This document shows, one piece after another, positions 27,040-44,346 of a DNA stretch of 64,000 bases (positions are counted from its first letter, which is position 1; every line of letters begins with the position of its first letter). The notes under the pieces are model-generated. The model did no database searches. It saw only the letters and a program-made list of their open reading frames with translations, and was not told the DNA's origin. Source of the DNA: Betaproteobacteria bacterium (GTDB lineage: Bacteria > Pseudomonadota > Gammaproteobacteria > Burkholderiales > Ga0077523). The stretch lies in NCBI GenBank assembly GCA_025350245.1, contig JANXYG010000125.1:90-64089 (forward strand). The letters are read 5' to 3'. Both the position numbers and the translations under genes were made by a program.

Positions 27040-28563
27040 ATGTACTACGCCTTCTACGGACTGAAGCTGCCACCATTCCGTATCACGCCGGACACCGAGT
27101 TCTTCTTCGATGGTGCCAATCGCGGCGCGGTGCTGGAGGCGCTGACCTACGCCATCATCTCCGGCGAGGGGATCGTCAAGGTAACCGGCGAGGTCGGCAG
27201 CGGCAAGACCATGCTTTGCCGGGTCTTGCAGCAGCGGCTGGCGCCGACCGTGGACATCGTCTATCTCGCCAATCCGAACGTGCCCCCCGAACAAATCCTG
27301 CATGCGATCGCGTTCGAGCTGCAGTTGCCGGTCGGACGCGAGGCGTCCCGCCTCGAGGTGATGCATGCCCTGCAGGCGTATCTGGTGGAACGGCATGCGC
27401 AACGCCGGCAAGTGGTGGTGTTCGTCGAAGAATCCCAGGGAATGCCGATCGCCACCCTGGAGGAGATCCGCCTGTTGTCCAACCTCGAAACCGACCGGCA
27501 CAAACTGCTGCAGCTGGTGCTGTTCGGCCAGCCCGAACTGGACGAGAACCTGCGCCAGAACCACATCCGCCAACTGCGGGAACGCATCACCCACAGCTTC
27601 TACCTGTCGCCATTGTCGGCGGCGGAGATCGAAGACTATCTTCGCTTCCGCCTGCAGGCGGCCGGCTATCGTGGTCCCGACCTGTTCTCGCGCCGGGTGA
27701 TCCAGTTCATCGCGCGGGCCAGCGCCGGCCTCACTCGAAGGGTCAACATCATCGCCGACAAGGCGCTGCTGGCGGCCTACGCCGGCAACACACACACAGT
27801 CACACTCGCGCACGTCAGGCAGGCCGTCGATGACAGCGAATTCAGCCGCGGGCAGTCGCCGCGCCGGCGGCGAGCATGGTTGCCATGGGCCGCGGGTATC
27901 GCCTGCACCGCGATCCTGGTCAGTGGTGCCGCCTGGTGGCGGTGGTCGGCGAATGCCGCTCCCGTGAGTGGCTCGCGGCTCGATCCGACGGCGGCGATCA
28001 CAACGCCTGCCCAGGCAGGCGTTGCGGAACCTCCCTCGCAATCGCAGCCCGTGCCCGCCCGGCCTACTCCGGTGTCGGTTGACCCGCGGCCACCGGGCCC
28101 GGAAGACGTCGATCTCGCCGGCCCGCAGCGCCTGCATATTTCAGCAAACATCAGCGCGCCTCCCACGGTGCCGACAGCAAGGGGCGACGCGGCATCCGCA
28201 ACGGGTGACGCCGGCCAGACGCTGCTCGAGCGCCGCCTCGCCGCGATGCCAGCCTGGCTGCGCGCCCAGCCGGAAGACGCTTACACGGTCCAGCTCATCG
28301 GGGCCAGCGACGCAAAATACCTCAAGCAATATTTGAAGACACTCTCGAAGTCTATTGATACGGATAATGTTTTTGTGTACCGTACCAGAGCAAATCTGAA
28401 GCCCTTCATGACCGTGGTGTATCGGACGTATCCATCCTTACGATCCGCCAGGGATGCCATCGACCAGTTTCCTTCGGATTTGCAGCGATTCCGCCCCTAT
28501 GAGCGGACCATCCGCGGCCTGCGTGCCGAAGTGATGGCGGGGGTCGGCGCCGCCGACCCGTGA
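27040..28563 (+). CDS. ExeA/MshM-like AAA+ ATPase fused to a periplasmic SPOR-like domain
   Basis: It has the N-terminal YYAFYGLKLPPF motif and Walker A GEVGSGKT. A TM segment (AWLPWAAGIACTAILVSGAAWW) and a Pro-rich linker follow. The C-terminal region YTVQLIGASD...VVYRTYPSLRSARDAI is SPOR-like. Confidence 0.8.
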   Translation: MYYAFYGLKLPPFRITPDTEFFFDGANRGAVLEALTYAIISGEGIVKVTGEVGSGKTMLCRVLQQRLAPTVDIVYLANPNVPPEQILHAIAFELQLPVGREASRLEVMHALQAYLVERHAQRRQVVVFVEESQGMPIATLEEIRLLSNLETDRHKLLQLVLFGQPELDENLRQNHIRQLRERITHSFYLSPLSAAEIEDYLRFRLQAAGYRGPDLFSRRVIQFIARASAGLTRRVNIIADKALLAAYAGNTHTVTLAHVRQAVDDSEFSRGQSPRRRRAWLPWAAGIACTAILVSGAAWWRWSANAAPVSGSRLDPTAAITTPAQAGVAEPPSQSQPVPARPTPVSVDPRPPGPEDVDLAGPQRLHISANISAPPTVPTARGDAASATGDAGQTLLERRLAAMPAWLRAQPEDAYTVQLIGASDAKYLKQYLKTLSKSIDTDNVFVYRTRANLKPFMTVVYRTYPSLRSARDAIDQFPSDLQRFRPYERTIRGLRAEVMAGVGAADP

Positions 28564-28633: not shown

Positions 28634-30430
28634 ATGATGACCGGGTCGGAACCTTGGCTTCGCGGCAGGGCCGTGACCGCCGGCAGCGTGTTCGTGCTGG
28701 CGCTGGCGAGCACGTTGTCTGCGTGCGTCTACCGCGCGCCGTCGATCCCGGTTTCCGACGCCCATCTCGGGATGGAACGGATGGCGCCGACGACGCCGGG
28801 CGACATCCCTGCCGCCGTATCGGTGCCGTCGCCGCCACCGCCGCGACCGCAGCAGAAACTGCCCACCTACAGCGTGGTCGTGAATGAAGTCCCGGTGAAG
28901 GAACTGTTGTTCGCCCTGTCTCGCGACACCCGGCAGAACATCGACATCAACCCTGCATTGCAGGGACTGGTCAGCCTCAACGCCATCGACGAAACCCTGC
29001 CGGCGATTCTCGACCGGATCGCGCGCCAGACCAACCTGCGCTGGCGCCAGGACGGACGCGTCATCTACGTGTCGCCCGACACGCCGCACGTGCGCACCTA
29101 CAAGGTCAACTACGTGAACGTCAGCCGCGAGACCGATTCGACGGTATCGGTCTCCGGACAGATCGGCACGGTCGGCGGTACCGGCGGCGGAGCCGGTGGT
29201 GGTGGCGGCGGTTCGAACTCGTCCAGTACGACCGTCAACACCAAATCCAAGAACGATTTCTGGAAGACGCTCGAAGACAACGTCAAGAGCATCCTCGCGG
29301 CCACCCGCGCCCAGACGCTGTCGTCTGACGAGCGGGCTGCCCGGGCCGAAGGCATCCGGGCCCGGCGGGAGGAGCGGATCGCGCAGGCGGAAGCCGTCGC
29401 GCGCGCGGGGCAGAACGCGAAAGACCTGTTCAATAGTGCCTTCGACGGACAGACCGCGGCGGCGATCCCCGGCGACGTCACCAACGAGGTCGCGGTGAAT
29501 GCGGTCGCCGGGACCGTGACGATCCTCGCCACCGACAAGCAGCACACCCTGGTCCAGCAGTACCTCGATGCCGTGTCGGCCGCCACCCAGCGCCAAGTGC
29601 TGATCGAGGCCACGATCGTCGAGGTCGAGCTGTCGCGTGCCTATCAGGCCGGCATCGATTGGGGGCGCGTCGCGAGCAGCCCCGGGGCCGGCATCAGCTT
29701 CGGCCAGAACCTGCTCGGCGCGACGCTGAGCGCCGCCCCGAACGTGAGCTTGAGCTATGGGTCGATCACGCCTGGAAACCTGTTCGCGACCATCAAGCTG
29801 CTCGAGACGTTCGGCAACGCGCGGGTCCTCTCGAGCCCCAAGGTCATGGCGCTGAACAATCAGACGGCGATCCTCAAGGTAGTTCGCAACGTCGTCTATT
29901 TCACCATCCAGCAGCAGATCAGCCAGAGCACCGTACTCGGCGGCACCGGCCTTCAGGCCACCACCACCACCGCCCGCACCGTGCCGCTCGGTCTGGTCAT
30001 GAGCCTGACGCCGCAGATCAACGAGAACGGTCAGGTAACGCTCAATGTCAGGCCGACGGTCACCAGTCAGGTCGGGGAAACGCTCGATCCGAATCCGGCC
30101 CTGGCGGTCACCAACCCACCCCTGAAGAACGCGATCCCGATCGTCGAGATCCGCGAAATCGAGTCGGTTCTGCAACTACAGAGCGGGCAGACCGCGATTC
30201 TCGGCGGCCTCATCAAGGACGAGATCCGGCGCAAGCGATCGCAGGTTCCCGGGGTCGGCAACACCGCTGTCGGTGACCTGTTCGCCCTACGCGACGAACA
30301 GGCGATCAAGACCGAACTCGTGATCTTCCTGCGCCCGACGATCGTCACCAACCCTTCGCTCGACGCCGAAGAACTCCGGTTCCTGCGCCCTTTGCTGCCC
30401 AACCCCGGACAGCCGGGCCCGGCGCGCTGA
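28634..30430 (+). CDS. lipoprotein secretin (MshL/GspD/PilQ superfamily)
   Basis: It has a lipobox (LALASTLSAC) and a C-terminal secretin core (LQSGQTAILGGLIKDE, VPGVGNTAVGDLFA, ELVIFLRPTIV). Confidence 0.85.
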   Translation: MMTGSEPWLRGRAVTAGSVFVLALASTLSACVYRAPSIPVSDAHLGMERMAPTTPGDIPAAVSVPSPPPPRPQQKLPTYSVVVNEVPVKELLFALSRDTRQNIDINPALQGLVSLNAIDETLPAILDRIARQTNLRWRQDGRVIYVSPDTPHVRTYKVNYVNVSRETDSTVSVSGQIGTVGGTGGGAGGGGGGSNSSSTTVNTKSKNDFWKTLEDNVKSILAATRAQTLSSDERAARAEGIRARREERIAQAEAVARAGQNAKDLFNSAFDGQTAAAIPGDVTNEVAVNAVAGTVTILATDKQHTLVQQYLDAVSAATQRQVLIEATIVEVELSRAYQAGIDWGRVASSPGAGISFGQNLLGATLSAAPNVSLSYGSITPGNLFATIKLLETFGNARVLSSPKVMALNNQTAILKVVRNVVYFTIQQQISQSTVLGGTGLQATTTTARTVPLGLVMSLTPQINENGQVTLNVRPTVTSQVGETLDPNPALAVTNPPLKNAIPIVEIREIESVLQLQSGQTAILGGLIKDEIRRKRSQVPGVGNTAVGDLFALRDEQAIKTELVIFLRPTIVTNPSLDAEELRFLRPLLPNPGQPGPAR

Positions 30431-30433
30431 CCC

Positions 30434-31954
30434 ATGAGTCTGCTGCTGCAGGCTTTGCAGAAAGCGGCCCGCAACCGCGAGCAGGCCAGTGCCGCATCGC
30501 CCGAAGCAAGCACCGAGCCGATCGCGGACAACCGGTCGATGCTCGACCTCGAGCCGGGCGAGTTCGACCCCAACCGCAGCATCGGCCGGGATCCCTCGGG
30601 TTCCGACCCGGAGACCGCCGCGACGCCCGCGGCAACGCCGCCTCTCGCATTGGAAACGCCCGCGTTCACAACCGCCGCCAGGGCAACGCCGCGTCCCACT
30701 TTTGTCGATGGCATGGACGAACCGACGCCGCGGCAGGCGGCGATCCTGATGCGTGCCGCCGCGACGGCGAAAGAACCGCGTTTCAACGCGATCGACTGGG
30801 CTCGCGACCATCCGGTCTATCTGTTCGCCGCGGCAGCGTGCGTTTTTCTGGCCGGTTACGGCGGCTACGTCTACCTCGCCATCACCCAACCCGGCCTGCT
30901 GTCGGGCGGCGGATTCAACCAGCAGGCGCCGGCGGCGCCGGTCGGCCCGCTTTCGGCCGCACCGCGCCCGCCCGGTGCGGCCACGAACGGCGCCGGGGCA
31001 ACGACCCCGTCGCAAACCGCACCCTCGCTGTTGCCGGCTGTCACCGGGACACCAACGGTCGCGCCCGGGCTGGGCCAGGCCGGCACCCCGCCCCAGGGTG
31101 GAACGACCGCGCAGCCGGCGCCGGCATTGCCGGCGCCGCGACCCGGCACCACTGCCGGCCAGACCAATACCGTTCAAGGTGCCGGCGCATCGGCGCCAGC
31201 CATCCCGCAACCGCCACCGCAGGTCGAACCGGTTCGACCGATCGCGGTTGCCGAATCACCGGCACCGATCGCGGCGCGATCCGGTTCCGCTCTCCGCGCC
31301 AGCCGCAGGCCGGCAGCGGAAGTTAACGGCAACATCCCCACGAACAAGCTGGAAGTACGCGCCAGCGGCAGTGCAGCCGCGATCACCGCTCAGTTGAACG
31401 AGGCCTATGCGGCATCCCGGAAGGGTGAAGCGCACGCCGCCGGGGATATCTATGAACGGGTACTGGCGAGCGATGCGCGCAATGTCGACGCGATGCTGGG
31501 CCTCGCCGCGCTCGCCTGGCAGGGCGGCAGAACCGAGCAGGCCAGCGACCTGTACTACCGAATCCTGCAATCCGAGCCGCAGAACGCCGCCGCGCAAGCC
31601 GGCCTGATCGGACTGGTGGGCCGGGTCGATCCGCTCGCGAGCGAAACCCGCCTGAAGCAACTCATCGCCCGCGAACCGGCCGGCTCACTTTATTTCGCTC
31701 TCGGCAATCTCTACACGTCGCAAGGCCAGTGGGCGGCCGGCCAGCGCGCCTATTTCCAGGCGGTGGAAGCCGATTCGGGCAATCCGGACTATGTGTTCAA
31801 CCTGGCCGTTGCCCTGGAACACATCGGGCAGCAGAAACCTGCGCTGGCCAACTACCGCAAGGCGCTGGACCTGTCGTTCGCCCGCGGCGGCGGTGGATTC
31901 GACCAGCAGCAGGTGATCGCCCGCATCGGCCAACTGTCGCTCGCCGTAGAATGA
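30434..31954 (+). CDS. bitopic TPR protein with GspB/MshN-like N-terminus
   Basis: It begins MSLLLQALQKAARNREQ and has a single TM (VYLFAAAACVFLAGYGGYVYLAI). A long Pro/Ala-rich spacer leads to C-terminal TPR repeats. Confidence 0.7.
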   Translation: MSLLLQALQKAARNREQASAASPEASTEPIADNRSMLDLEPGEFDPNRSIGRDPSGSDPETAATPAATPPLALETPAFTTAARATPRPTFVDGMDEPTPRQAAILMRAAATAKEPRFNAIDWARDHPVYLFAAAACVFLAGYGGYVYLAITQPGLLSGGGFNQQAPAAPVGPLSAAPRPPGAATNGAGATTPSQTAPSLLPAVTGTPTVAPGLGQAGTPPQGGTTAQPAPALPAPRPGTTAGQTNTVQGAGASAPAIPQPPPQVEPVRPIAVAESPAPIAARSGSALRASRRPAAEVNGNIPTNKLEVRASGSAAAITAQLNEAYAASRKGEAHAAGDIYERVLASDARNVDAMLGLAALAWQGGRTEQASDLYYRILQSEPQNAAAQAGLIGLVGRVDPLASETRLKQLIAREPAGSLYFALGNLYTSQGQWAAGQRAYFQAVEADSGNPDYVFNLAVALEHIGQQKPALANYRKALDLSFARGGGGFDQQQVIARIGQLSLAVE

Positions 31955-33708
31955 TCGATATGGCCATCTCCGTCGCACCAACGCCCAAGCCTCCGGTACC
32001 GGACCCGCCGCGCCGCAAGATGCGGCTTGGCGAGTTGCTGGTGCAGCAGGGACTGGTCACGCCCGACCAGTTGCGCATCGCGCTCACCGAGCAAAAATCG
32101 CAGCGCATGCCGATCGGGCGGCTGCTGGTGCGCCTGGGATTCGTCACCGAGGCGGTGATCCGCGATCTCATGGCGCGCGCCATCGGCCAGGAAGCCATCG
32201 ACCTCTCGCAGGTCGTGGTCGACGCCGACGCGCTCAAGTTCGTGCCGCAGGAATTTGCCCGGCGCCAGCGGATGCTGCCGATCGCCTTCGAGACCAACGA
32301 GCGCGTGCTCACGGTCGCCACCACCGAGATGTTCAACGTGGTGGCGGTGGACCAGTTGCGCGCCGCGCTGCCATCGAACGTGCAACTGCGCACCGTGCTC
32401 GCCGGGGAAGCCCAGCTCGAGGACTTCATCGATCAGTTCTACGGCTTCGAGCTGTCGGTCGACGGCATCCTGCGGGAGATCGAGACCGGCGAGATCGACT
32501 GGCAGAGTCTCCAGTCCGGCGGCGACGAATACACCCAGCCGATCGTGCGGCTGGTCAATGCGCTGATGATCGACGCCGTGAAGCGCGGCGCCTCGGACAT
32601 CCACTTCGAGCCCGAACTCGCCTTCCTGCGCATTCGCTACCGCATCGACGGCGTCCTCGAGCAGGTCCGAAGCCTGCACAAGAACTACTGGCCCGGCATT
32701 GCCGTGCGGCTCAAGGTCGTGAGCGGCATGAACATCGCCGAGACCCGGGCACCGCAGGATGGCCGCATCTCGCTCAACCTGAACGGTCGGCCGGTCGATT
32801 TCCGGGTGTCGTGCCATCCGACCATCTACGGCGAGAACATCGTCCTGCGCATCCTCGACCGCCAGAAGGCGATCATCAGCCTGGATCAGATGCGCCTGCC
32901 CAAACCGGTGCTGGCGAAGCTCAACCTGATGCTGGCGCGGCCCGAGGGCATCCTCGTGATCACTGGCCCTACCGGCAGCGGCAAGACCACGACGCTCTAC
33001 TCGCTGCTGTCGCAAGTAAACGTCGAAGGGGTCAACATCATGACCCTCGAAGATCCGGTCGAGTATCCGGTCGCGCTGATCCGGCAGACCTCGGTGGGCG
33101 ACGCGGTCAAGCTCGATTTCGCCAACGGCATCCGCTCGATCATGCGCCAGGACCCGGACATCATCCTGGTGGGCGAAGTGCGCGACCGCGAGACCGCCGA
33201 GATGGCATTCCGGGCGGCGATGACCGGTCACCAGGTGTTCACCACGCTGCACACCAATTCGGCGCTGGGCGCATTTCCGCGACTGCTCGACATCGGCATC
33301 CTGCCCGACATCATCGCCGGCAACGTCATCGGGATCATCGCCCAGCGGCTGGTGCGCACGCTGTGCCGTCATTGCAAGATCGAATACCGACCGTCGCTCG
33401 AGGAAAAACACATTCTCGGGCTGCCCCCGGAAAGCCCGGCCACCGTGTTCCGGCATCATGACGGCGGCTGCCAGCACTGCAACGCCCGCGGCTTCAAGGG
33501 GCGGATGGCGATCCTCGAGATCCTGCACATGGACGCCGATCTCGACGAACTCGTGGCGCGCCGCGCGACCGCGCGGGAACTGCGACGCGCCGCCGACGAA
33601 CGCGGCTTCCGTTCGCTGGCCGACGAGGGCGTGGCGCGCGTGCTCGAGGGCGCCACCAGCATCGCCGAGGTGTCGCGATCGGTCGACCTCACGGCACGGG
33701 TACTCTAG
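31951..33708 (+). CDS. MshE-type type IV filament assembly ATPase (GspE/PilB family)
   Basis: It has Walker A GPTGSGKTT, the tetracysteine CRHC...CQHC and an N-terminal MshEN-type tandem motif. An ATGA overlap joins it to the upstream gene at 31951. Confidence 0.9.
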   Translation: MIDMAISVAPTPKPPVPDPPRRKMRLGELLVQQGLVTPDQLRIALTEQKSQRMPIGRLLVRLGFVTEAVIRDLMARAIGQEAIDLSQVVVDADALKFVPQEFARRQRMLPIAFETNERVLTVATTEMFNVVAVDQLRAALPSNVQLRTVLAGEAQLEDFIDQFYGFELSVDGILREIETGEIDWQSLQSGGDEYTQPIVRLVNALMIDAVKRGASDIHFEPELAFLRIRYRIDGVLEQVRSLHKNYWPGIAVRLKVVSGMNIAETRAPQDGRISLNLNGRPVDFRVSCHPTIYGENIVLRILDRQKAIISLDQMRLPKPVLAKLNLMLARPEGILVITGPTGSGKTTTLYSLLSQVNVEGVNIMTLEDPVEYPVALIRQTSVGDAVKLDFANGIRSIMRQDPDIILVGEVRDRETAEMAFRAAMTGHQVFTTLHTNSALGAFPRLLDIGILPDIIAGNVIGIIAQRLVRTLCRHCKIEYRPSLEEKHILGLPPESPATVFRHHDGGCQHCNARGFKGRMAILEILHMDADLDELVARRATARELRRAADERGFRSLADEGVARVLEGATSIAEVSRSVDLTARVL

Positions 33709-33750: not shown

Positions 33751-34953
33751 ATGCCGTCCTTCCAGTACAAGGCAGTCGACCCTGCCGGACTGTCCTCCCG
33801 GGGCAAACTCGAAGCATCCAACGAGGTCGACCTCGAGTTGCGCCTCAAGCGCATGGGCCTCGATCTCATCACGGTTCGCCAGACCCGCTCGGGCGGCGGT
33901 AGCGCCACCGCCAACATCAACCGCAAGGATCTGATCAATCTCTGCTTCGACCTCGAGCAGATGACCGGTGCCGGCATTTCACTGCTCGATGGCCTGCGCG
34001 ATCTGCGCGACAGCGTCGGCGGGAGCGGGATGAAGGCGGTGCTCACGGCACTGGTCGAAGACATCGAGGGCGGCCGCATGCTGTCGCAGGCCATGGGTCA
34101 GCACCCCAAGGTGTTCAACGGCGTATTCGTGAGCCTGGTGGCGGCAGGCGAGCAGTCGGGCCAGCTGACCGAGATTTTCCGCAGCCTGTCCGAGTCGCTG
34201 CGCTGGCAGGACGAACTCGCGGCGCAGACCAAGAAGGTGCTCATCTATCCGGCGATCCTGACGTTCCAGCTGATCGCGGTGACCGTTTTCCTGCTCGTCT
34301 ACCTGGTACCCCAGGTGGTGAGCGTGCTCAAGACCATGCAGGTGGACCTGCCGATACAGACAGTCGTGCTGATCGGGGTGTCCGGTTTCGTGGTCCGCTT
34401 CTGGTGGCTGGTCATCGGCCTGCCGGTACTGACGGTGGTCGGGGGCATCGTACTGTTCAGGTCGAGCGACAAGGCGCGCTTCGAGTTCGACCGCCTCAAG
34501 CTGCGCCTGCCGGTCATCGGTCCGGTGTTCCAGAAGATCATCCTGGCACGCTTCGCGAGCTTCTTCGCGCTGATGTACCGGTCGGGCATCACCGTGCTCG
34601 ACGCCATGCGAACCAGCCAGAACATCGCCGGCAACCTCGTCATCGCCGATGCCCTGCAGCGGGCGACCGTGCGGGTCAATGCCGGAGAGCCGCTGTCCGA
34701 AGCGATTGCCGGCACCGGGATGTTTCCGTCGCTGGTGATCCGGATGCTGCGGGTGGGCGAAGCCACCGGCGCGCTCGATACCGCCCTGCTGAACGTCAAC
34801 TACTTCTACACCCGTGACGTAAAGGATTCGGTGGAGGGCGCGCTCAAGCTGATCGAACCGATCCTGACCCTGTTGATGGGCGGTCTGCTCGCGCTCATCC
34901 TGTTCTCGGTCCTCACGCCGATCTACGACATGATCGGCAAGATGAAGTTTTGA
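33751..34953 (+). CDS. GspF/PilC/MshG-family inner-membrane platform protein
   Basis: The 400-aa product starts with the typical MPSFQYKAVDPAG. It has a duplicated cytoplasmic domain and three-TM architecture. Confidence 0.85.
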   Translation: MPSFQYKAVDPAGLSSRGKLEASNEVDLELRLKRMGLDLITVRQTRSGGGSATANINRKDLINLCFDLEQMTGAGISLLDGLRDLRDSVGGSGMKAVLTALVEDIEGGRMLSQAMGQHPKVFNGVFVSLVAAGEQSGQLTEIFRSLSESLRWQDELAAQTKKVLIYPAILTFQLIAVTVFLLVYLVPQVVSVLKTMQVDLPIQTVVLIGVSGFVVRFWWLVIGLPVLTVVGGIVLFRSSDKARFEFDRLKLRLPVIGPVFQKIILARFASFFALMYRSGITVLDAMRTSQNIAGNLVIADALQRATVRVNAGEPLSEAIAGTGMFPSLVIRMLRVGEATGALDTALLNVNYFYTRDVKDSVEGALKLIEPILTLLMGGLLALILFSVLTPIYDMIGKMKF

Positions 34954-34955: not shown

Positions 34956-36533
34956 ATGGCGAACCGGCTACTGGTCTGCATATCGGCACACGGGGTTTCG
35001 GTCGCGCGCTGGAACGGGAAGCTCTTCGCCACCACCCGTTTCGACAACGACGACGCGGGACTGGACGGCTTCACGCGGTATCTCAAAGCCGGCCGCTCGG
35101 CACCGGTGCATGTCATGGTCGACAGCACCGACGAGGATTACCGGGTCGAGACGCTGCCGCACACCGGGGGCCGTGACCGTCGCGAGCTGGTCCAGCGCAA
35201 GCTGAAGCAGATCTATCGAACCACCCCCTATTTCGCGGCGGTGGCGCAGCCGGTCGCCAAACCGCAGAACCGGCTCAAGGGCGCCCGGCGCGAAGACCGC
35301 TTCCTGTTCGCGGCCCTGACCGAGGCCGACCTGCTCGCGCCCTGGATCAACGCGATCACCGCCCGCGCTCTGCCAGTCGCCGGCGTGTTTCCGCTGCCCG
35401 CCGTCACCGCGGCGGTGGTGCCGCGGCTGAAGCTGAAGAGCGAGAATCTGCTGGTGATCTCGAAGGATGTCGCCGGCTTTCGGCAGACCTTCTTCAAGGA
35501 CGGCCGTTTCCGTCTCACCCGCCTGACCCAGGCGCGCGGCGGCGGCGACCGCACCATCGACTGGTCGTTCGCGGACGAAGTCCGGAACACCCGGCTGTAT
35601 CTCGACGCGCTCGGCGTCACTCTCGCCGACAACCTGGTCGATGTGCTCATTCTCGACCACGACAACTCCCTGGCGAGCCTGCACCAGGCGCTCGAGCACA
35701 AGCGCGGCAACCTGCAGTGTCAGCGCCTCGCCCGCGAAGAGCTGATACTGAAACTGAAGGTGCCCGATGCGGCCATCGCGGCGACCCCCGATGCCCTGCA
35801 TCTGCAGCTCCTGGGCAGCTACACCCCGGTCGAGAACCTGGCACCGGCCGCGTTGCTCGAGCCATACCGCCTGTTTCGCGCGCGCCGCTGGCTGTTTGCG
35901 GCTACGGCCGCGGTTGTCGCCATCGGCGGCATCTGGTTCGGCATCGACCTGCAACGCGTCCAGTCCATCGACGACGAATCGCGTCGGTTCTCGACCGACG
36001 CGGCGCGCTTCGAAGCGCAATATCGCGAACTGACACGCCAGTTCCCGCAGGCGCCGGCGAGTTCTGCAACGCTCAAGCTCACCGTCGAGGTGGCGGCGCG
36101 CATCCGTGACAACGTCCGGACCCCGGAGACCCTGTTCGCGGTGGTGAGCGACGCCCTGGCATCGTCGCCGACCGTCGCGGTGACCAGCCTCGCCTGGAAG
36201 TACGGCAAGTATCCCGATGCCGCAACGGCGTTCGCGCCGGCCTCGATCACCGGGACCGCCACCGATCGCGAGTGGCGCCAGGTCGGTCTGATGGTCGGCG
36301 AGATCACCCCGTTCGCCGGCGACTATCGCTCCGCCATTTCCAGCATCCGCGACTTCGCCCAGCGGCTGCGACAAAGTCCCCTCGTGGCCGACGTGAGGAT
36401 CATCAAGCTGCCGCTCGACGCCAGCTCGCGGCAGAGTCTGACCGGGAGCACGGCGACCGCGACCGAACAGCGACGCAGCGCGCTGTTCGAGATCGCCATC
36501 ACCTACAAGCCGCAACCGGGGCTGCCCGCATGA
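34956..36533 (+). CDS. bitopic assembly protein with GspL / PilM-PilN-fusion (MshI-like) architecture
   Basis: The 525-aa product has a ~310-aa cytoplasmic domain, one TM (WLFAATAAVVAIGGIWFGIDL) and a ~190-aa periplasmic domain. The call is by position and topology only. Confidence 0.5.
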   Translation: MANRLLVCISAHGVSVARWNGKLFATTRFDNDDAGLDGFTRYLKAGRSAPVHVMVDSTDEDYRVETLPHTGGRDRRELVQRKLKQIYRTTPYFAAVAQPVAKPQNRLKGARREDRFLFAALTEADLLAPWINAITARALPVAGVFPLPAVTAAVVPRLKLKSENLLVISKDVAGFRQTFFKDGRFRLTRLTQARGGGDRTIDWSFADEVRNTRLYLDALGVTLADNLVDVLILDHDNSLASLHQALEHKRGNLQCQRLAREELILKLKVPDAAIAATPDALHLQLLGSYTPVENLAPAALLEPYRLFRARRWLFAATAAVVAIGGIWFGIDLQRVQSIDDESRRFSTDAARFEAQYRELTRQFPQAPASSATLKLTVEVAARIRDNVRTPETLFAVVSDALASSPTVAVTSLAWKYGKYPDAATAFAPASITGTATDREWRQVGLMVGEITPFAGDYRSAISSIRDFAQRLRQSPLVADVRIIKLPLDASSRQSLTGSTATATEQRRSALFEIAITYKPQPGLPA

Positions 36534-37150
36534 AGACCGGCCCGCAAAACGTGTGGTCGCTGGTGGGGCCGGCGCTGGTCCTGGTCATTGCCGCCGCGCT
36601 CACGCTGATGGCGATTTGGTACGCCGAAGGGCTGGTCGCAAACCGCCAGCAGTTGCGCGACACCGCCCAGCGACAACGCGTCGATGCGGATAAGAAGCAC
36701 GCCAATGCCGGCGCCGAGAAGAAACTCATAACGGACTATCTCGCCCCGTACTCGGCGTTGCAGGACGCCGGGTTCGTCGGTGGCGAGCAACGCATCGACT
36801 GGGTCGACAGCCTGCGTACCGCCAACCGCGCGGCCGGCCTGTTCGGGGTCAACTACGATATCGGCCAGCAGGAAGCCTATCCGCTGGCGAGGGATCTGGG
36901 CGCCGGCGATCTGCCGCTCAAGCAGTCACCGATGAAGCTCACCCTGCCGCTGCTCCACGAGGGCGACCTGATGGCGTTCTTCCGCAGCCTTGCCGCGCAG
37001 CGCGCCGGCCTGTTCATGCTCAACGGCTGCAACCTGAGGCGCACCGGCATCGTCCCGCCCAGCGGAACCCAGGCAAACCTCACCGCCGAGTGCGAGGTCG
37101 CCTGGATCACCGTCGACGATACCCAGGCGAAAGCGGGACAACGGCCATGA
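36530..37150 (+). CDS. bitopic protein in the PilO/GspM/MshJ slot
   Basis: The 206-aa product has ATGA coupling at both ends. It has an N-terminal TM (LVGPALVLVIAAALTLMAIW) and a periplasmic domain. No family motif was recognised. Confidence 0.5.
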   Translation: MKTGPQNVWSLVGPALVLVIAAALTLMAIWYAEGLVANRQQLRDTAQRQRVDADKKHANAGAEKKLITDYLAPYSALQDAGFVGGEQRIDWVDSLRTANRAAGLFGVNYDIGQQEAYPLARDLGAGDLPLKQSPMKLTLPLLHEGDLMAFFRSLAAQRAGLFMLNGCNLRRTGIVPPSGTQANLTAECEVAWITVDDTQAKAGQRP

Positions 37151-37809
37151 CGATCAGGATGCCGGCCGTGCCGGCGCTGCTGCTGGTTCTGCTGTCGGGG
37201 TCCACACTCGCCGAAGACCCCCTCGGGCGTCTGTTCTTCACGCCGGCCCAGCGCGTAGAACTCGACCGCGAACGCGCCGCCGCGGCCACCAACGCGTCGC
37301 GACCGGCGGCGGTGCAGGCCCAGCCGAAGGCACCCCCACCGAAGATGGTGACCCTGAACGGTATCGTGCGCCGCAGCGACGGCGAAACCACGGTGTGGGT
37401 GAACAACAAGCCTCTGCACGAGCGCTTCGGCGATGCCGAGATCGATGCCGGGTCCATCGCCCGCGAGGGCGTCGGCATCAATCTCCCGGCTTCGGGCAAA
37501 CAGGTGCGCCTCAAGGTCGGACAGACGGTCGATGCCACCAGTGGCAGGGTGGCGGAAAGCTATGACCACCGGGCGCCGCAACCGCCGTCGACCAGGGACG
37601 CCGAAACCGCGGCGCAGGAGGCGAAAGCCGTCGCCGCCGACACGACCGCCAGGGCCGAAACCGATGCCAGGCGGCGTGAAGCCATCCGCAGCCGGCGTGA
37701 ACGCCAGCGCGCCGAGCCCCAGGTTCTCTTCGAGACCGAACCACCGGCGGGGGCCCCCGCGCCTGGCACCACCACCGTCACCACCATCACGAATGACGCG
37801 GCACGCTGA
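37147..37809 (+). CDS. secreted periplasmic protein in the PilP/MshK slot
   Basis: The 220-aa product has a signal peptide (MPAVPALLLVLLSGSTLA). It has a beta-rich core (LNGIVRRSDGETTVWVNNK) and an Arg/Glu-rich tail. Confidence 0.45.
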   Translation: MTIRMPAVPALLLVLLSGSTLAEDPLGRLFFTPAQRVELDRERAAAATNASRPAAVQAQPKAPPPKMVTLNGIVRRSDGETTVWVNNKPLHERFGDAEIDAGSIAREGVGINLPASGKQVRLKVGQTVDATSGRVAESYDHRAPQPPSTRDAETAAQEAKAVAADTTARAETDARRREAIRSRRERQRAEPQVLFETEPPAGAPAPGTTTVTTITNDAAR

Positions 37810-39256
37810 CGGGTTTCCCGCACGCGAGCGCGGCGTCGTCGTGCTGCTGATGCTGGTGCTGGGGGCGCTCGTGGGCGTGCTGTTCTTCACCGGGGTCCTC
37901 GGCGGCGGACCCACCACCAGCGAGCGCGATCTCATCACGCGCGCCGCACTCGCCAAGGCGAAGACCGCACTGATCGACTATGCGGTCACCTATATGGACA
38001 CGCATCCCAACATGCCGCCCGGCTTCCTGCCTTGCCCCGAAATCGACGGCAGCCTGCGTGAAGGATCGCCGGCCCTGGGCGGCTGCAACAACGTCGGCGA
38101 GAACGCGATCGGGCGCCTGCCCTGGTACACGCTCGGCATCGAACCGTTGCGGGACGGCTACGGCGAATGTCTCTGGTACGCCGTATCAGGCAACTACAAG
38201 AACGACCCCGCGCCGTTGCTGCTCAACTGGAACTCCAACGGGACCCTGCGCGCCTTCCTCGCGGTCCCGGTAGGCGGAACCCCGCCCCCGCTCGACAACA
38301 ACGTGCTGCAACGCGCCGTCGCCGTGATCATCGCGCCCGGACCGGCGCTTGGTACCCAGACACGTAACATGGCGACCGTGAATCCAGCGCCAGATCTGTG
38401 TCGCGGCAACCGCATCGCGGCGAACTATCTGGAAACCAGCAACAGCGTCAACAATGCGGCCATGGCGACGATCGGCGAGGCCAGCTTCATTTCCGGCGTG
38501 CCGACCGCGGCCTTCAACGACCGGCTTATCACCATCACCGCGGGCGAGATCTGGGCGGCGATCCTGCGGCGGCCGGATTTCCAGGCCCGGCTGCGGCTTC
38601 TCACCCAGAGGGTGGCCGAGTGCATCGCGTATTACCCGCAGACCGGCGCCACCGGCAATGCCAACGATCGCCGGCTGCCCTGGGCATCGAACCCCGGTTA
38701 CTTCGATCGCGAGCCGATCTACTACAGCGATGACCTCTCGCGCACGCTGGCGGGCCGGGCGCCGTACTCGGTCAGTGTTTCGAACGTGGACATCGGCCGC
38801 ACCACGTGGGGTACCAGCACGACCCTGCTGGGTGAAAACGGTGTCGCCAGCGGCAAGTGCCCCACGGGTGCCGCGGGCTGGAACACGATGATCAACAACT
38901 GGTGGAATCACTGGCGCGATCATGTGTTCTACGCGGTGAGCCGCAACTTCGCACCGAACGGACAGGCGTCCAACACCGGGTGTTCGCCGAGCACCAACTG
39001 CATCACCGTCGACGGCGTCGGACCGTACGCGGGCGTGGTGATGTTCGCCGGGGAGATCCTGCCGGCAGTGACGCCGAACCAGACCCGGTTCTCGGATTCA
39101 TTGAAGTTCAACTTCGCGTCCTATCTTGAGGCGCGCAACAAGAGCGCCAATGCCGCCGGCAACAACGACTACCAGACGTCGGCGACCGCGGCGCCGCCGT
39201 TCAACGACATTCTCTACTGCATTAACGTGACGCTGGCGGTAGCTGCGTGCCCATGA
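37793..39256 (+). CDS. large (487 aa) pilin-like protein with non-canonical N-terminus (GspK/PilX-like)
   Basis: The N-terminus RERGVVVLLMLVLGALVGVLF has a hydrophobic helix but no Phe+1/Glu+5. Several motifs are shared with the downstream prepilin (LPCP, YAVSG). Confidence 0.55.
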   Translation: MTRHADGFPARERGVVVLLMLVLGALVGVLFFTGVLGGGPTTSERDLITRAALAKAKTALIDYAVTYMDTHPNMPPGFLPCPEIDGSLREGSPALGGCNNVGENAIGRLPWYTLGIEPLRDGYGECLWYAVSGNYKNDPAPLLLNWNSNGTLRAFLAVPVGGTPPPLDNNVLQRAVAVIIAPGPALGTQTRNMATVNPAPDLCRGNRIAANYLETSNSVNNAAMATIGEASFISGVPTAAFNDRLITITAGEIWAAILRRPDFQARLRLLTQRVAECIAYYPQTGATGNANDRRLPWASNPGYFDREPIYYSDDLSRTLAGRAPYSVSVSNVDIGRTTWGTSTTLLGENGVASGKCPTGAAGWNTMINNWWNHWRDHVFYAVSRNFAPNGQASNTGCSPSTNCITVDGVGPYAGVVMFAGEILPAVTPNQTRFSDSLKFNFASYLEARNKSANAAGNNDYQTSATAAPPFNDILYCINVTLAVAACP

Positions 39257-40029
39257 TGGTCTCGCGGCGCCGGCGCGATGCCGGCTTTTCCCTGATCGAG
39301 CTGGCCATCGGCCTGGTGATCGTCGCGACCCTGTTGTCGAGTCTGCTGGTACCCCTGGTCACGCAGCTCGACCAGAAGCGCACCGCCGAAACCCAGCGCC
39401 TGCTGGAGCAGGCACGCGAAGCGCTGATCGGCTTCGCCGCGGCCAACAACCGCCTGCCCTGCCCGGCGACCGACGCGCCCGGCGCCACCGGCAACGAGAG
39501 CTTTGCCGCCGGGGGCTCCGCCACCACTGGCGCATGCTTGGCGGCGACCGGCCCCCTGCCCGGGGTAACGCTGGGCCTGTCGCCGCTGGATGCGCAGGGA
39601 TTCTATGTCGATGCCTTCGCCAGCGACCGCAATCGCATTCGCTACGCGGTGTCCGGCCAGATGGTGAACGGCGTCACCAACCCCTTCACCCGCATCAACG
39701 GGATGAAGAACGCGACGATGACTGCCATTGCAGCATCCAGCAGCCTGCTGTTCGTGTGCAGCGCGACGCCGGCGGCATCGAACTGCGGCACGGCGACCGC
39801 GCTCGCCAACGGCACCGCCATCGCGGTCGTCTTCTCGCCCGGAAAGAACGCGATCCTCAATGCGCCCAGCGCCGACGAGCTGGAGAACACCGACACCGAC
39901 AACGTGTTCGTGAGCCGGCCCTATTCCGACCGGACCGGAGGGGCGAGCACCGTGTTCGACGATCAGATGCTCTGGTTGTCACCGGCGCCGCTGTTCAGCC
40001 GCCTGCTCAGCGCCGGCGCGCTCCCCTGA
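39253..40029 (+). CDS. prepilin-type protein (minor pilin/pseudopilin)
   Basis: It has the class III signal RRRRDAG|FSLIELAIGLVIVATLL. An ATGA overlap joins it to the upstream gene (ATG 39253). Confidence 0.85.
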   Translation: MMVSRRRRDAGFSLIELAIGLVIVATLLSSLLVPLVTQLDQKRTAETQRLLEQAREALIGFAAANNRLPCPATDAPGATGNESFAAGGSATTGACLAATGPLPGVTLGLSPLDAQGFYVDAFASDRNRIRYAVSGQMVNGVTNPFTRINGMKNATMTAIAASSSLLFVCSATPAASNCGTATALANGTAIAVVFSPGKNAILNAPSADELENTDTDNVFVSRPYSDRTGGASTVFDDQMLWLSPAPLFSRLLSAGALP

Positions 40030-40116: not shown

Positions 40117-41844
40117 TCACGCGGCATCGGAAATCGCGGGCGCAAGGGTCCCGGGGCGCAAGGTGAAACAGACCTCACCGGCAAGGTTCGATGACAGTTC
40201 CAGCACGTAGCCCAGTTCGGCGGCGTGACGCGCGCTCTGGTACAACCCGACCCCCAAACCATCGTCCGATGCTACCGGCGCCCGGAACAGCTCGCGCGCC
40301 AGAGACGCCGAAATGGCCTCGCCGCCATCGGTGATCGAAAATCCGACACCTTCGCCATCGTGAAGCCAGGCCGCACGCACCGACGCGGTCTCGCCGCGAC
40401 GACGTTTCGCCAACGCATTCTGGAGCAGGTTGTCGGCGACGCTGTCGAACAGGTCGCCAGGGACCAGGGCCACCGCCTGAACCTCGCCGATGCCATCGAA
40501 CTCGACACCCTCGTGGGCGTATTGCTGGGCGAGCGCCCGCCACCAGTCGGCCGCGTTCACCATGCCGACCGGCCCGGAACGGTGGGCATCGAGCTTGTCG
40601 AGCGTACTCTGGAGCCGCTGGACGATCTGCGGCAATTGCCGCCGGATGAGTCGCAGCAATGCATCGGCGTCATCGCTACTGCTGTTCGCCGCCGCGGCAC
40701 AAAGCGAGCGCAACGATTGCAACAGGTTCTTGACGTCGTGCGTGAGGCGCGATCCGGTTTCGTAGATCGCCTGCAGATAGTCGGTCTGGCGCTGCGCCTG
40801 TTCGCGTACCTTCGCGTCGTGGTAGTCGCCGAGCAGGCGCGCCAGCAGACGCATGTGCAGCAGCAGCGCCGGTGTCGGCCGCCAGCGCGTGTAGAGGCGC
40901 AGATCCAGCCCGCCGAACGCGAAATGCGTGTCGAACGGCGAGACGATCCCGACCAGCCCCTCGCGGTTCGCAGCCGACCATTCGACCCCCACGAGCCATG
41001 GCAGCTCGAGCATGTCGCGCACTGCCCGCGCCACGAACTGGTACGGGTCGGCCTCGCGCTCGGCGAGGTTGGCCAGCCGGTGCATCCAGCGCTCGAACGG
41101 CATGCCAAGGCTGAGAAAGTAGCGCGACAACACCTGTCCGATGCCGGCAAAACCGCCACGCGGGTCCCAGAGCCACGACAGGATGAGCATGATGGCAGCG
41201 ATCGCCGTCACGGTCTTCACCAGCGCGACGGGATAGTCGTTGTGCGTCACCTGCTGCACGAACACCGTGCCCAGCACCAGCACCACCGCCAGCAGGAACA
41301 GCAGCACGCTGTAGACCAGATCGATGGCGTAGCGGGGCTGCGCGTGCCGCTCGCTCGTGCCCAGAAACGGGATCACGATCAGCGGCAACAGCAGACCATG
41401 CCGCAGAACCACCAGCGCCGCACTGGCAACCGACGCCTTGCCGAACAGCCCGGGGACGACCCAGGCGAGCAGTGCGGCGAGGAGATAAAGCGCAGCGAGC
41501 AACGATGCCATGCGCTCTCGCCGCGGGCCCAGCGCCGGCACGTTGCCCCCGATCAGCGAGAACAGCACCGCGAGCCAGAGGCCGAGCAGCCACCAACTGC
41601 TCCACCACACCAGCACGGCGCTCCCGGCAACCACCAGCAACGCTCGACGGGGCACCAGTTGCTGCGCGCCCTGCCACACCGGTTGCCAGAGCAGGAACAG
41701 GCCGAAGTGCGCAAGCAGCAAGGCCCGGGACGCGCCACTGCCGAGATCCAGCAGCAGCGCAAGATGCAGGGCGAGCAGCATGAGCCCGAGCGTGACGTTC
41801 TGCCGCGCCCACAGCGAGCGCGGGCGGATCGCGGGCGGGGTCAT
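40117..41844 (-). CDS. multi-TM sensor histidine kinase (PilS-like topology)
   Basis: It has roughly 9-10 N-terminal TM helices, an H-box SRLTHDVKNLLQSL, an N-box DNLLQNALAK and G-boxes ITDGGEAI / GLGVGLY. The start is trimmed to ATG 41844 because the ORF extension is repeat DNA. Confidence 0.85.
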   Translation of the reverse strand: MTPPAIRPRSLWARQNVTLGLMLLALHLALLLDLGSGASRALLLAHFGLFLLWQPVWQGAQQLVPRRALLVVAGSAVLVWWSSWWLLGLWLAVLFSLIGGNVPALGPRRERMASLLAALYLLAALLAWVVPGLFGKASVASAALVVLRHGLLLPLIVIPFLGTSERHAQPRYAIDLVYSVLLFLLAVVLVLGTVFVQQVTHNDYPVALVKTVTAIAAIMLILSWLWDPRGGFAGIGQVLSRYFLSLGMPFERWMHRLANLAEREADPYQFVARAVRDMLELPWLVGVEWSAANREGLVGIVSPFDTHFAFGGLDLRLYTRWRPTPALLLHMRLLARLLGDYHDAKVREQAQRQTDYLQAIYETGSRLTHDVKNLLQSLRSLCAAAANSSSDDADALLRLIRRQLPQIVQRLQSTLDKLDAHRSGPVGMVNAADWWRALAQQYAHEGVEFDGIGEVQAVALVPGDLFDSVADNLLQNALAKRRRGETASVRAAWLHDGEGVGFSITDGGEAISASLARELFRAPVASDDGLGVGLYQSARHAAELGYVLELSSNLAGEVCFTLRPGTLAPAISDAA

Positions 41845-41856
41845 GTCAGTGCCCGC

Positions 41857-41930
41857 CGGGGCCGTCCCAAGGACACCGCCCCCCTGGAGGAAGGCGAAGC
41901 GCAGCGCAGCCTGGGGGCGGGCGTCACCTC
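41857..41930. repeat. 3' two-thirds of the ~100-nt repeat unit
   Basis: GGGGCCGTCCCAAGGACACCGCCCCCCTGGAGGAAGGCGAAGCGCAGCGCAGCCTGGGGGCGGGCGTCACC aligns to the units at 12571 and 61067. Confidence 0.8.
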
Positions 41931-43613: not shown

Positions 43614-43659
43614 CCATACGAGGTTCGCCGATGTGCATTGGCGCCTATCGGAGATCAAC

Positions 43660-44346
43660 GTGAATTCAAGACGCAACCAGGGCTTCACCCTGATCGAGAT
43701 CGCGATCGTGCTCGTGATCATCGGCCTGCTGCTCGGCGGCATCCTCAAGGGCCAGGAACTGATCACCAGTGCCCGCGTCCGCAATCTCATCTCGCAACAG
43801 GACGGCGTCAAGGCCGCGTTCTACGGCTTCCAGGACCGGTTCCGCGGCCTGCCCGGCGACTATAACCTGGCCACGACGAATATCCAGGGGACGACGGCGA
43901 ACGGGAATGGCGACGGTCAGATCGTGACGGCCACCGGCGGCGGCGGCACCGTAGAGCCGAATCTGGTTTGGGAACATCTCTCCAAGGCGGGTTTCGTGAA
44001 TGGCAATTACACCTACGCGGCGACGGCTTCGGCGCAGACCACACCCAACAATCCCTATGGGCAACAGGTGCAGCTCATCTGGGATGCCAGCTATGCGGTC
44101 CTGACCGGCGCGCCGCAGAACCCACGCCACAATCTCAAGACCGGTAACCAGATCCCGGTCGAGATCATCGCAGAGGTCGATCGCAAGGTGGACGACGGCC
44201 TGCCGGCTTCCGGCTCGTTCGTGTTCTCCGATTTCGCTGGAATCCAAGCGGCGTTGACCGGCTGTGCCAACATCGGTGCAACCACATCGAACTGGATCCT
44301 GGTCACCGGCGCCCAACAGAACTGCGGCGGCACCAGCCTGTTCTGA
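43660..44346 (+). CDS. type IV pilin-like protein (major subunit candidate)
   Basis: It has the class III signal SRRNQG|FTLIEIAIVLVIIGLLLGG and a GGAG 6 nt before GTG 43660. A C-terminal Cys pair (GCANIG...QQNCGG) is present, and an intrinsic terminator follows. Confidence 0.85.
   Translation: MNSRRNQGFTLIEIAIVLVIIGLLLGGILKGQELITSARVRNLISQQDGVKAAFYGFQDRFRGLPGDYNLATTNIQGTTANGNGDGQIVTATGGGGTVEPNLVWEHLSKAGFVNGNYTYAATASAQTTPNNPYGQQVQLIWDASYAVLTGAPQNPRHNLKTGNQIPVEIIAEVDRKVDDGLPASGSFVFSDFAGIQAALTGCANIGATTSNWILVTGAQQNCGGTSLF

What the first reader, a model, noticed from the sequence alone, without database searches (positions are those of the whole stretch)
37793..40029. Paralogous pair of pilin-like proteins, one expanded to 487 aa and lacking the canonical prepilin motif
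The 258-aa protein has a textbook class III signal (G|FSLIELAIGLVIV). The preceding 487-aa protein shares a string of colinear motifs with it:
- AKTALIDYAV...GFLPCPE versus AREALIGFAAANNRLPCPA
- LPWYTLGIEPLRDGYG...YAVSGN versus LPGVTLGLSPLDAQGF...YAVSGQ
- AVAVIIAPGPALG versus AIAVVFSPGKNAI
- FNDRLITITAGEIW versus FDDQMLWLSPAPLF

Its N-terminus (RERGVVVLLMLVLGALVGVLF) has no Phe+1 or Glu+5, as in GspK/PilX-type tip subunits. It therefore looks like a duplicated pilin expanded by large insertions, with several extra Cys pairs and Trp-rich segments. It may be a filament tip or adhesin module.
Basis: seen in the sequence. Interest (0 to 1): 0.55.

Follow-up and report, generated by a model that had tools for sequence, protein, structure and literature searches.

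The report
Paired minor pilins, one internally duplicated
The last two genes of an MSHA-like pilus operon in an uncultured betaproteobacterium encode related pilin-like proteins; the larger one carries two copies of the shared head domain and a GspK/PilX-style N-terminus, so it most likely caps or starts the filament.

Summary
A 487-aa ORF (A, 37793-39256) and a 258-aa ORF (B, 39253-40029) sit at the stated coordinates with overlapping stop and start codons. They are homologous: BLASTP E 9e-6, shuffle z about 9, and profile-profile probability 99.2% (E 2.9e-19) over A residues 5-258 against all of B.

B has a canonical prepilin signal (G|F...E+5). A keeps an invariant Gly in a conserved Q-R-G|[AVLI] motif and never has Glu+5, as in GspK/PilX/MshP-type subunits.

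The "large insertions" reading is wrong. The extra 229 residues of A are a C-terminal second copy of the same globular domain (profile E about 1e-8; shuffled controls score below 20 against 62).

The pair is the conserved 3' end of an MSHA-type type IV filament operon. B lies directly downstream of A in 76 of 77 related loci, mostly betaproteobacterial MAGs. The A family is large (1,844 50%-identity clusters at E<=1e-30). It has no Pfam or NCBIfam model and no PDB neighbour by Foldseek.

Best reading: a two-protein cap and initiation module for the pilus. This is a new variant of a known kind. The function is inferred, not shown.

The parts
37793..39256 (+). Gene A: 487-aa GspK/PilX-style pilin-like protein with two copies of the family's globular domain
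   Evidence: ORF and gene calls. At least 430 homologues at 90% clustering and 1,844 50%-identity clusters at E<=1e-30. AF2 pLDDT 86.2, pTM 0.85.
37793..37834 (+). A residues 1-14: short basic leader ending in the conserved (Q/E)-R-G motif, the putative prepilin-peptidase site (G14|V15)
   Evidence: G14 is invariant in A1. Q-R-G|[AVLI] was found in 106 of 120 homologues, never with Glu+5. Cleavage is inferred, not shown.
37823..38002 (+). A residues 11-70: hydrophobic stem helix (11-34), a break at GGGPTTS, then an amphipathic helix (42-70) carrying AKTALIDYAV
   Evidence: AF2 secondary structure. Aligns with alpha1 of B.
38006..38566 (+). A domain D1 (residues about 72-258), homologous to the globular domain of B. 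Motifs: LPCP, GRLPWYTLG, ECLWYAVSG, AVAVIIAPGPALGTQTR, ANYLE, FNDRLITIT.
   Evidence: hhalign of D1 against B's globular domain gives E 1.3e-10 and 6.2e-9 with larger alignments. The D1 HMM hits B at E 3.2e-5 among all window ORFs.
38567..39253 (+). A domain D2 (residues 259-487): a long helix (261-283) plus a second, diverged copy of the globular domain. Motifs: RRLPW, DHVFYAVS, AGVVMFAG..NQTR, ASYLEARN, FNDILYCIN.
   Evidence: hhalign of D2 against D1 gives E 6.4e-9 to 1.3e-8; controls score at most 19.9. E 2e-6 with larger alignments. The D1 and D2 HMMs cross-hit each other's region in independent homologues.
39253..40029 (+). Gene B: 258-aa canonical prepilin-type protein (leader MVSRRRRDAG, then F+1 and E+5) with one copy of the globular domain
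   Evidence: AF2 pLDDT 92.2. An identical protein is in NCBI assembly GCA_043726285.1.
27040..28563 (+). AAA_22 ATPase in the position of MshM/ExeA
   Evidence: Pfam AAA_22 E 6.6e-26. The same position is occupied in related loci.
28634..30430 (+). Secretin, closest to MshL
   Evidence: TIGR02519 pilus_MshL E 1.5e-66, 224 bits, just under the 250-bit cutoff. Pfam Secretin_N_2 and Secretin.
30434..31954 (+). TPR protein in the position of MshN
   Evidence: TPR hits.
31951..33708 (+). Extension ATPase with an MshE-type N-terminal c-di-GMP-binding domain
   Evidence: NF053729 63.3 bits against a cutoff of 38; strong GspE/PilB hits. Pfam MshEN and T2SSE.
33751..34953 (+). GspF/PilC/MshG-type platform protein
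   Evidence: TIGR02120 E 4e-93.
34956..37809 (+). Three genes (525, 206 and 220 aa) with no family hits, in the positions and sizes expected of MshI/J/K (PilM-N/O/P-like) alignment proteins
   Evidence: No Pfam or NCBIfam hit. Order and sizes are conserved in 80 loci. The functional assignment is an inference from position and size only.
43633..44346 (+). 237-aa canonical prepilin (..RRNQG|FTLIEIAIVLVII), the candidate major pilin of the system
   Evidence: N_methyl E 1e-7. Shares only the N-terminal motif with B. A pilin gene recurs at this position in related loci. The 'major pilin' role is inferred.

Best explanation
A and B are the two dedicated minor-pilin-type subunits of an MSHA-class type IV filament machine. 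The machine comprises a secretin, a TPR protein, an MshE-type c-di-GMP-binding ATPase, a platform protein and three alignment-type proteins.

Both proteins are inserted into the inner membrane by their N-terminal hydrophobic helix, and both are probably cut by prepilin peptidase after the conserved Gly. B has Phe+1 and Glu+5 and so can sit within the filament. A lacks Glu+5, like GspK/PilX/PilK/MshP, so it needs no partner above it and is predicted to be the top-most subunit.

A and B are translationally coupled and share a head-domain family. They are proposed to pair through their stems and homologous heads into a small cap or initiation complex, onto which the 237-aa major pilin (43633-44346) is polymerised. 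A's second head domain (D2) would then project from the tip.

Shown here: the homology, the N-terminal motifs, the domain duplication, the operon membership and the conservation. Inferred: processing, tip location, A-B pairing and the priming role.
For: - A-B homology.
- B is a canonical prepilin.
- A's Gly-1 is invariant, and the family-wide pattern is Q-R-G|[AVLI] with a hydrophobic residue at +5.
- AF2 gives both proteins a long N-terminal helix followed by a beta-sheet domain with colinear elements.
- Internal duplication in A.
- The operon encodes an MshL-like secretin, an MshEN-ATPase and a GspF-type platform.
- B lies immediately downstream of A in 76 of 77 loci, and the order G-I-J-K-A-B is conserved.
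- Only three pilin-type N-termini occur in the 64-kb window (A, B and the 237-aa pilin).
- Longer family members carry C-terminal extensions or insertions in D2, as expected of a distal exposed module.
- Published knowledge holds that Glu5-less GspK/PilX/PilK/MshP subunits cap and help initiate type IV filaments: PMC13533445, Table 1 and text.
Against: - No HMM for GspK (T2SSK) or PilX_N, nor the N_methyl motif, matches A or any of 47 homologues, even at E<=1.
- Foldseek against the PDB, which the search would have reported GspK-type or other minor-pilin structures from had any matched, gives nothing with E<1 for A or B. Only the N-terminal helix matches pilins weakly.
- No GspI- or GspJ-like partners were identified.
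- No prepilin peptidase gene is in the window.
- No experiment or complex model links A to B or to the filament tip.
- D2 is not detectably similar to B directly (E 0.17-0.27). D2 against D1 is only marginal at single-sequence level (z 2.7).
Confidence: 0.6

Rival explanations
1. A is not a filament subunit. It is an uncleaved bitopic inner-membrane protein whose two periplasmic domains act in the assembly platform, for example by chaperoning or docking B and the pilin. It would have evolved from a pilin but lost processing along with Phe+1 and Glu+5.
For: A fails the N_methyl and TIGR02532 models, as do 47 homologues. The AF2 stem helix is broken at residues 35-41 with low confidence. A directly follows the three alignment-type genes.
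Against: The Gly before the hydrophobic segment is invariant and is preceded by a conserved basic Q-R motif. That would be unnecessary for a plain membrane anchor and is exactly the pattern of cleaved GspK/PilX-type subunits. The alpha1 region aligns with that of B.
Confidence: 0.15
2. The machine is a secretion device (T2SS-like) rather than an adhesive pilus. A and B would form the tip of a short periplasmic pseudopilus that pushes a substrate through the secretin.
For: The ATPase and platform score almost as well on GspE/GspF models as on pilus models. GspK-type caps are typical of T2SS. There is no retraction ATPase in the locus.
Against: The secretin scores far better on MshL than on GspD (224 against 126 bits). 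The ATPase has the MshEN c-di-GMP domain. MshM- and MshN-like genes are present. No GspC, GspL or GspM family was detected. A 237-aa pilin is larger than the roughly 134-residue GspG model (TIGR01710 profile length).
Confidence: 0.15
3. A and B share motifs by chance or through composition (a high-GC, Ala/Gly-rich proteome) and are unrelated proteins.
For: Identity is only 33% over 108 aligned residues, and BLASTP covers just that segment.
Against: Shuffle z is 7.8-10 with 0 of 1000 shuffles reaching the score. hhalign E is 2.9e-19 over 213 aligned columns. All four motifs are conserved columns in both families.
Confidence: 0.01

Closest known systems
GspK / PilX / PilK / MshP-type minor (pseudo)pilins, the cap subunit of the GspI-J-K or PilV-W-X initiation complex
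   Same: Short basic leader. Conserved Gly-1 in a Q-R-G context. A hydrophobic, non-Phe residue at +1. No Glu+5. Larger than the other pilins of its system. Encoded in a type IV filament locus next to another minor pilin.
   Different: No sequence-model match to T2SSK or PilX_N, and no structural match to any solved minor pilin. The extra mass is a tandem copy of its own head domain rather than GspK's inserted alpha-domain. Its partner is a paralogue, not GspI/GspJ-type proteins.
Vibrio cholerae MSHA pilus system (mshIJKLMNEGF / mshBACDOPQ)
   Same: MshL-like secretin, MshM-like AAA_22, TPR MshN-like protein, MshE ATPase with the MshEN c-di-GMP domain, MshG-like platform, then three I/J/K-sized genes. 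MSH clusters were already noted as rearranged and of unknown function in Sideroxydans ES-1 and Gallionella ES-2 (PMC3770913).
   Different: Different gene order. No recognisable MshB/C/D/O/P/Q. Only three pilin-type genes lie in the window. A and B take the place of the mshDOPQ tip set.
Modular type IV pilins: a pilin module plus extra C-terminal modules, as described for Streptococcus sanguinis PilB/PilC (from my own knowledge, not checked here)
   Same: A pilin-type N-terminal module followed by an additional globular module. The module content varies among homologues.
   Different: Here the added module is a duplicate of the pilin head itself. No adhesin-type domain (such as vWA or lectin) was detected.

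Membership tests
Type IV pilin / pseudopilin superfamily (class III signal peptide) | N-terminal prepilin cleavage/methylation motif (Pfam PF07963, TIGR02532): G-1, F/M+1, E+5 | tested here: met
   Met for B: PF07963 25.6 bits (cutoff 21.2) and TIGR02532 20.0 bits (cutoff 16.3). F+1 occurs in 99 of 114 and E+5 in 100 of 114 B homologues.
Type IV pilin / pseudopilin superfamily (class III signal peptide) | The same motif in protein A | tested here: not met
   No N_methyl or TIGR02532 hit for A or for 47 homologues at E<=1. Only Gly-1 and the hydrophobic helix are kept. This is the known exception pattern of GspK/PilX-type subunits.
Type IV pilin / pseudopilin superfamily (class III signal peptide) | Pilin fold: a long N-terminal alpha-helix packed on an antiparallel beta-sheet | tested here: inconclusive
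   The AF2 models (pLDDT 86 and 92) show a long N-terminal helix followed by 5-7 strands. Foldseek against the PDB gives only non-significant hits to pilins through the helix (E 1.3-2.5).
Type IV pilin / pseudopilin superfamily (class III signal peptide) | Cleavage and N-methylation by prepilin peptidase; incorporation into a filament | not testable with these tools
   Needs mass spectrometry or N-terminal sequencing and pilus preparations. No peptidase gene lies in the window.
GspK / PilX / PilK / MshP cap minor pilins | Gly-1 retained, Glu+5 absent, non-Phe hydrophobic +1 | tested here: met
   RERG|VVVLL in the window protein. Q-R-G|[A/V/L/I] with +5 = V/I/L/A/T/M/F in 106 of 120 homologues, none with Glu. 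G14 is invariant.
GspK / PilX / PilK / MshP cap minor pilins | Match to the family sequence models (Pfam T2SSK, PilX_N) | tested here: not met
   No such hit in any of 48 family members at E<=1, and none in NCBIfam.
GspK / PilX / PilK / MshP cap minor pilins | Structural similarity to a solved GspK-type subunit | tested here: not met
   Foldseek of the A model against 350,542 PDB chains found no match with E<1.
GspK / PilX / PilK / MshP cap minor pilins | Forms the tip trimer with GspI- and GspJ-type partners; the final beta-strand is supplied in cis or by a PilY1/MshQ-type protein | not tested
   No I/J-type genes were recognised. Only A, B and one pilin have pilin-type N-termini in the window. 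Complex modelling was not available.
MSHA-class type IV filament system | MshE ATPase with the N-terminal c-di-GMP-binding MshEN domain | tested here: met
   NF053729 63.3 bits (cutoff 38). Pfam PF05157 on the identical public gene.
MSHA-class type IV filament system | MshL-type secretin | tested here: inconclusive
   TIGR02519 is the best hit at 224.3 bits, but that is below its 250.2-bit cutoff.
MSHA-class type IV filament system | MshB/C/D/O/P minor pilins and MshQ | tested here: not met
   No such proteins lie in the window. A and B have no NCBIfam or Pfam family.

The most novel reading that the evidence does not exclude
A and B together form a complete, minimal initiation and cap complex. 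It would be built from three homologous head domains (A-D1, A-D2, B) carried on only two stem helices. This pseudo-trimer would replace the canonical three or four separate minor pilins (GspH/I/J/K, PilV/W/X, MshD/O/P) and the PilY1/MshQ-type adhesin. D2 would be a 'stemless' pilin module fused in cis. That would be a previously undescribed way of priming a type IV filament. It is widespread in environmental Betaproteobacteria such as the iron-oxidising Gallionellaceae.
Probability: 0.3. Interest if true: 0.6.

Novelty: new variant of a known kind. Interest (0 to 1): 0.42.

Why it matters
Minor pilins decide whether and how type IV filaments start, and what sits at their tip. This locus points to a large family: 1,844 50%-identity clusters at E<=1e-30, found in 449 of about 185,000 species-level genomes. 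That family is missing from Pfam, NCBIfam and the PDB.

The usual multi-protein tip set appears here to be reduced to one canonical pilin-like protein plus one Glu5-less paralogue that has duplicated its head domain. If confirmed, this would give a compact model for studying filament initiation. It would also give a first handle on the function of the MSH-type pili of Gallionellaceae, Rhodocyclaceae and related environmental bacteria, whose role is unknown (PMC3770913). Practically, the two families deserve their own HMMs so that these genes stop being annotated as 'hypothetical' or generically as 'PulG'.

Tried and rejected
- Pfam and NCBIfam scans of A, B and the three upstream genes gave only the N_methyl motif in B.
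- A Pfam scan of all 48 A-family members at E<=1 found nothing pilin-related.
- A Pfam scan of ten long (625-1132 aa) relatives found no adhesin or other domain in the extra sequence.
- PDB sequence-profile searches gave noise for A (ribosomal eL34, Fab) and only the alpha1 helix of pilins for B.
- Foldseek of both AF2 models against the PDB gave no hit with E<1. The fold of the head domain is therefore unassigned. Model coordinates could not be cropped or superposed.
- Direct D2-against-B profile comparison was not significant (E 0.17-0.27). The D2-B relationship rests on transitivity through D1.
- Single-sequence D2 against D1 was marginal (z 2.7).
- A sigma-54 promoter pattern search gave 62 matches against 77 expected, so it was uninformative.
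- The terminator scan after B found nothing on the + strand.
- A motif search for a prepilin peptidase in the window found none.
- The 'viral' structure library and the third homology search were judged uninformative and not used.
Full report
**What is there.** On the + strand the window carries a 487-aa ORF (A, 37793-39256) and a 258-aa ORF (B, 39253-40029). Gene calls on identical or near-identical public contigs give the same two genes. B's ATG overlaps A's stop codon (ATGA). A's ATG lies 17 nt inside the preceding gene, so the genes are probably translationally coupled.

B begins MVSRRRRDAG|FSLIELAIGLVIV and passes both curated prepilin-motif models (PF07963 25.6 against 21.2 bits; TIGR02532 20.0 against 16.3 bits). 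A begins MTRHADGFPARERG|VVVLLMLVLGALVGVLF and matches no Pfam or NCBIfam model.

**Is the similarity real?** Yes.
- BLASTP gives 33% identity over 108 residues, E 9e-6 for the single comparison.
- The Smith-Waterman score is 94 against a mean of 39 and a maximum of 68 in 1000 shuffles (z = 9.0).
- It stays at z = 10.0 without the hydrophobic helix and z = 7.8 for the globular parts alone.
- I built family alignments of 48 A-type and 44 B-type sequences. Profile-profile comparison gives probability 99.2%, E 2.9e-19, over 213 columns.

They are conserved columns of both families: ...A(K/R)EALI.(Y/F)A...LPCP; G.LP..TLG; YAVS; AVAV(I/V).(A/S)PG; and F(N/D)D...(I/W)(T/S).

**How A is built.** The alignment with B covers A residues 5-258 and all of B (2-252). 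A is therefore not B with large insertions. The extra 229 residues are a C-terminal module.

Comparing the profile of A 259-487 with the profile of A's own N-terminal half gives probability 95.6-95.9% and E 1.3e-8 and 6.4e-9, score about 62. Thirty column-shuffled controls score at most 19.9, and the reversed alignment scores 19.

The repeated motifs are plain:

| D1 | D2 |
|---|---|
| ECLWYAVSGNYKN | DHVFYAVSRNFAPN |
| AVAVIIAPGPALGTQTR | AGVVMFAGEIL...NQTR |
| ANYLETSN | ASYLEARN |
| FNDRLITIT | FNDILYCIN |

Further support and limits:
- With larger alignments (259, 234 and 120 sequences) D1-B is E 6e-9 and D2-D1 is E 2e-6. D2-B is not significant.
- Plain HMMER models of D1 and D2 cross-hit each other's region in independent homologues.
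- At single-sequence level D2 against D1 is only marginal (z 2.7). The duplication is therefore old.
- AF2 (pLDDT 86.2, pTM 0.85) predicts a stem helix at 11-34 and 42-70, a beta-rich D1, a long helix at 261-283 and a second beta-rich domain.
- B (pLDDT 92.2) has a helix at 14-65 plus a beta-rich domain ending in a helix.
- The order of secondary-structure elements in D1 and B follows the sequence alignment.

In short, A is stem + D1 + helix + D2.

**N-terminus of A.** G14 is one of the invariant columns of the family. In 106 of 120 homologues a Gly followed by an uncharged stretch could be located, with these preferences:
- Position -3 is Q (84) or E (15).
- Position -2 is R (66), H (15) or Q (12).
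- Position +1 is A, V, L or I (97 in total).
- Position +5 is V, I, L, A, T, M or F, and never Glu.

In the B family, +1 is Phe in 99 of 114 and +5 is Glu in 100 of 114. A conserved Gly-1 in a basic context with no Glu+5 is the pattern of GspK/PilX/PilK/MshP-type subunits. Those are the cap members of type IV filament initiation complexes (general knowledge; table and text of PMC13533445).

**Context.** A and B close an operon made up of the following genes:
- an AAA_22 ATPase, in the position of MshM;
- a secretin closest to MshL (224 bits, just below the 250-bit cutoff);
- a TPR protein;
- an ATPase with the MshE-type c-di-GMP domain (63 bits against a cutoff of 38);
- a GspF/PilC-type platform protein;
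- three genes of 525, 206 and 220 aa with no family hit.

A sigma-54-type response regulator lies upstream. A histidine kinase lies convergent downstream, followed by two conserved unknown genes and a canonical 237-aa prepilin (43633-44346). Only these three proteins in the 64-kb window have pilin-type N-termini. The head-domain family occurs only in A (twice) and in B.

The same arrangement is found in a 5.29-Mb genome and in distant contigs. A scan of 185,579 species-level genomes found 449 that encode an A relative. The best 80 are all MAGs, mostly Betaproteobacteria (Gallionella, Sideroxydans, Sterolibacterium, Rhodocyclaceae, Burkholderiales, Nitrosomonadales, Sulfuricellaceae); about ten carry Gammaproteobacteria-type labels (Chromatiaceae, Enterobacteriaceae) and one a Gemmatimonadales label. 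In 76 of the 77 loci with room downstream, B directly follows A on the same strand, and the order platform-I-J-K-A-B is kept.

An exhaustive profile search of 1.84 billion cluster representatives finds 1,844 at E<=1e-30 and 4,354 at E<=1e-3. Longer relatives (up to 1132 aa) have C-terminal extensions or insertions in D2. These carry no known domain.

**What it is not, or not demonstrably.**
- None of 48 A-family members matches T2SSK, PilX_N, N_methyl or any other pilin model, even at E<=1.
- PDB sequence profiles give nothing for A and only alpha1 for B.
- Foldseek against the PDB gives no match with E<1 for either model. The only pilin hits are weak ones through the N-terminal helix.

So A works like a GspK/PilX-type subunit by its N-terminus and context, but it cannot be filed as a member of those families. 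The fold of the shared head domain has no recognised solved relative.

**Most likely mechanism (inferred).** Both proteins are inserted in the inner membrane and cut after the conserved Gly. A lacks Glu+5 and so sits at the very top. B, its paralogue with Glu+5, docks beneath or beside it. Together they nucleate polymerisation of the 237-aa pilin by the MshE-type ATPase. D2, the most variable part of the family, is displayed at the tip. Confidence is about 0.6.

Rivals:
- A as an uncleaved membrane-anchored assembly factor (0.15).
- The apparatus as a T2SS-like secretion pseudopilus rather than an adhesive pilus (0.15).
- Chance similarity (refuted).

**Novelty.** MSH-type clusters in Sideroxydans and Gallionella have been noted as rearranged and of unknown function (PMC3770913; PMC10734482). 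I found no description of this pilin pair or of the tandem head domain.

It is a new variant of a known kind: a large, unmodelled minor-pilin family pair in which the cap subunit grew by duplicating its own head. It seems to stand in for the usual three- or four-protein tip set. Interest is moderate. This is a tidy structural and evolutionary point with a testable hypothesis, not a new kind of system.

Noticed in passing
window 34956-37809: Three conserved operon genes (525, 206 and 220 aa) have no Pfam or NCBIfam hit at E<=0.1. By position and size they look like MshI/J/K (PilM-N, PilO, PilP-like) alignment proteins. The 220-aa protein has a signal-peptide-like start and a Pro/Ala/Arg-rich low-complexity tail.
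   Followed up: partly
window 40117-43527: A multi-pass histidine kinase lies convergent to the operon. It is only weakly PrsK-like: E 1.7e-11, 43 bits against a cutoff of 300. It is followed by an ABC2-like membrane protein (262 aa) and a 249-aa unknown. The kinase is found in most of the Burkholderiales-type loci but not in the Gallionella/Sideroxydans loci listed; the two unknown genes were seen only in the annotated loci.
   Followed up: partly
window 25512-26999: A sigma-54-dependent response regulator lies directly upstream of the operon. It scores 331 bits on the PEP-CTERM-box regulator PrsR model, below the 503-bit cutoff. This suggests sigma-54 control of the pilus genes. A TGGCAC-N5-TTGC scan gave no more matches than chance. 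One weak match (43598-43612) lies just upstream of the pilin gene.
   Followed up: partly
window 46459-51713: Downstream of the locus, related contigs carry SIS/CBS (KdsD-like), KdsC-like, LptC, LptA-like and LptB-like genes. The window appears to have the same block, possibly followed by rpoN (a 516-aa ORF at 50166-51713). This was not scanned.
   Followed up: no
L005 14437-18473 (complete 5.29-Mb genome): A relative's locus has three N_methyl-type pilin genes plus two unknown 243-266-aa genes where the window has a single pilin. The pilin complement of this system therefore varies between genomes.
   Followed up: no
P0302, P0270, P0093, P0383, P0253 (A-family relatives): Some family members carry 280-570 extra C-terminal residues. 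Others carry insertions of about 180-200 aa in D2. None has a Pfam match, so these may be new tip or adhesin modules.
   Followed up: partly
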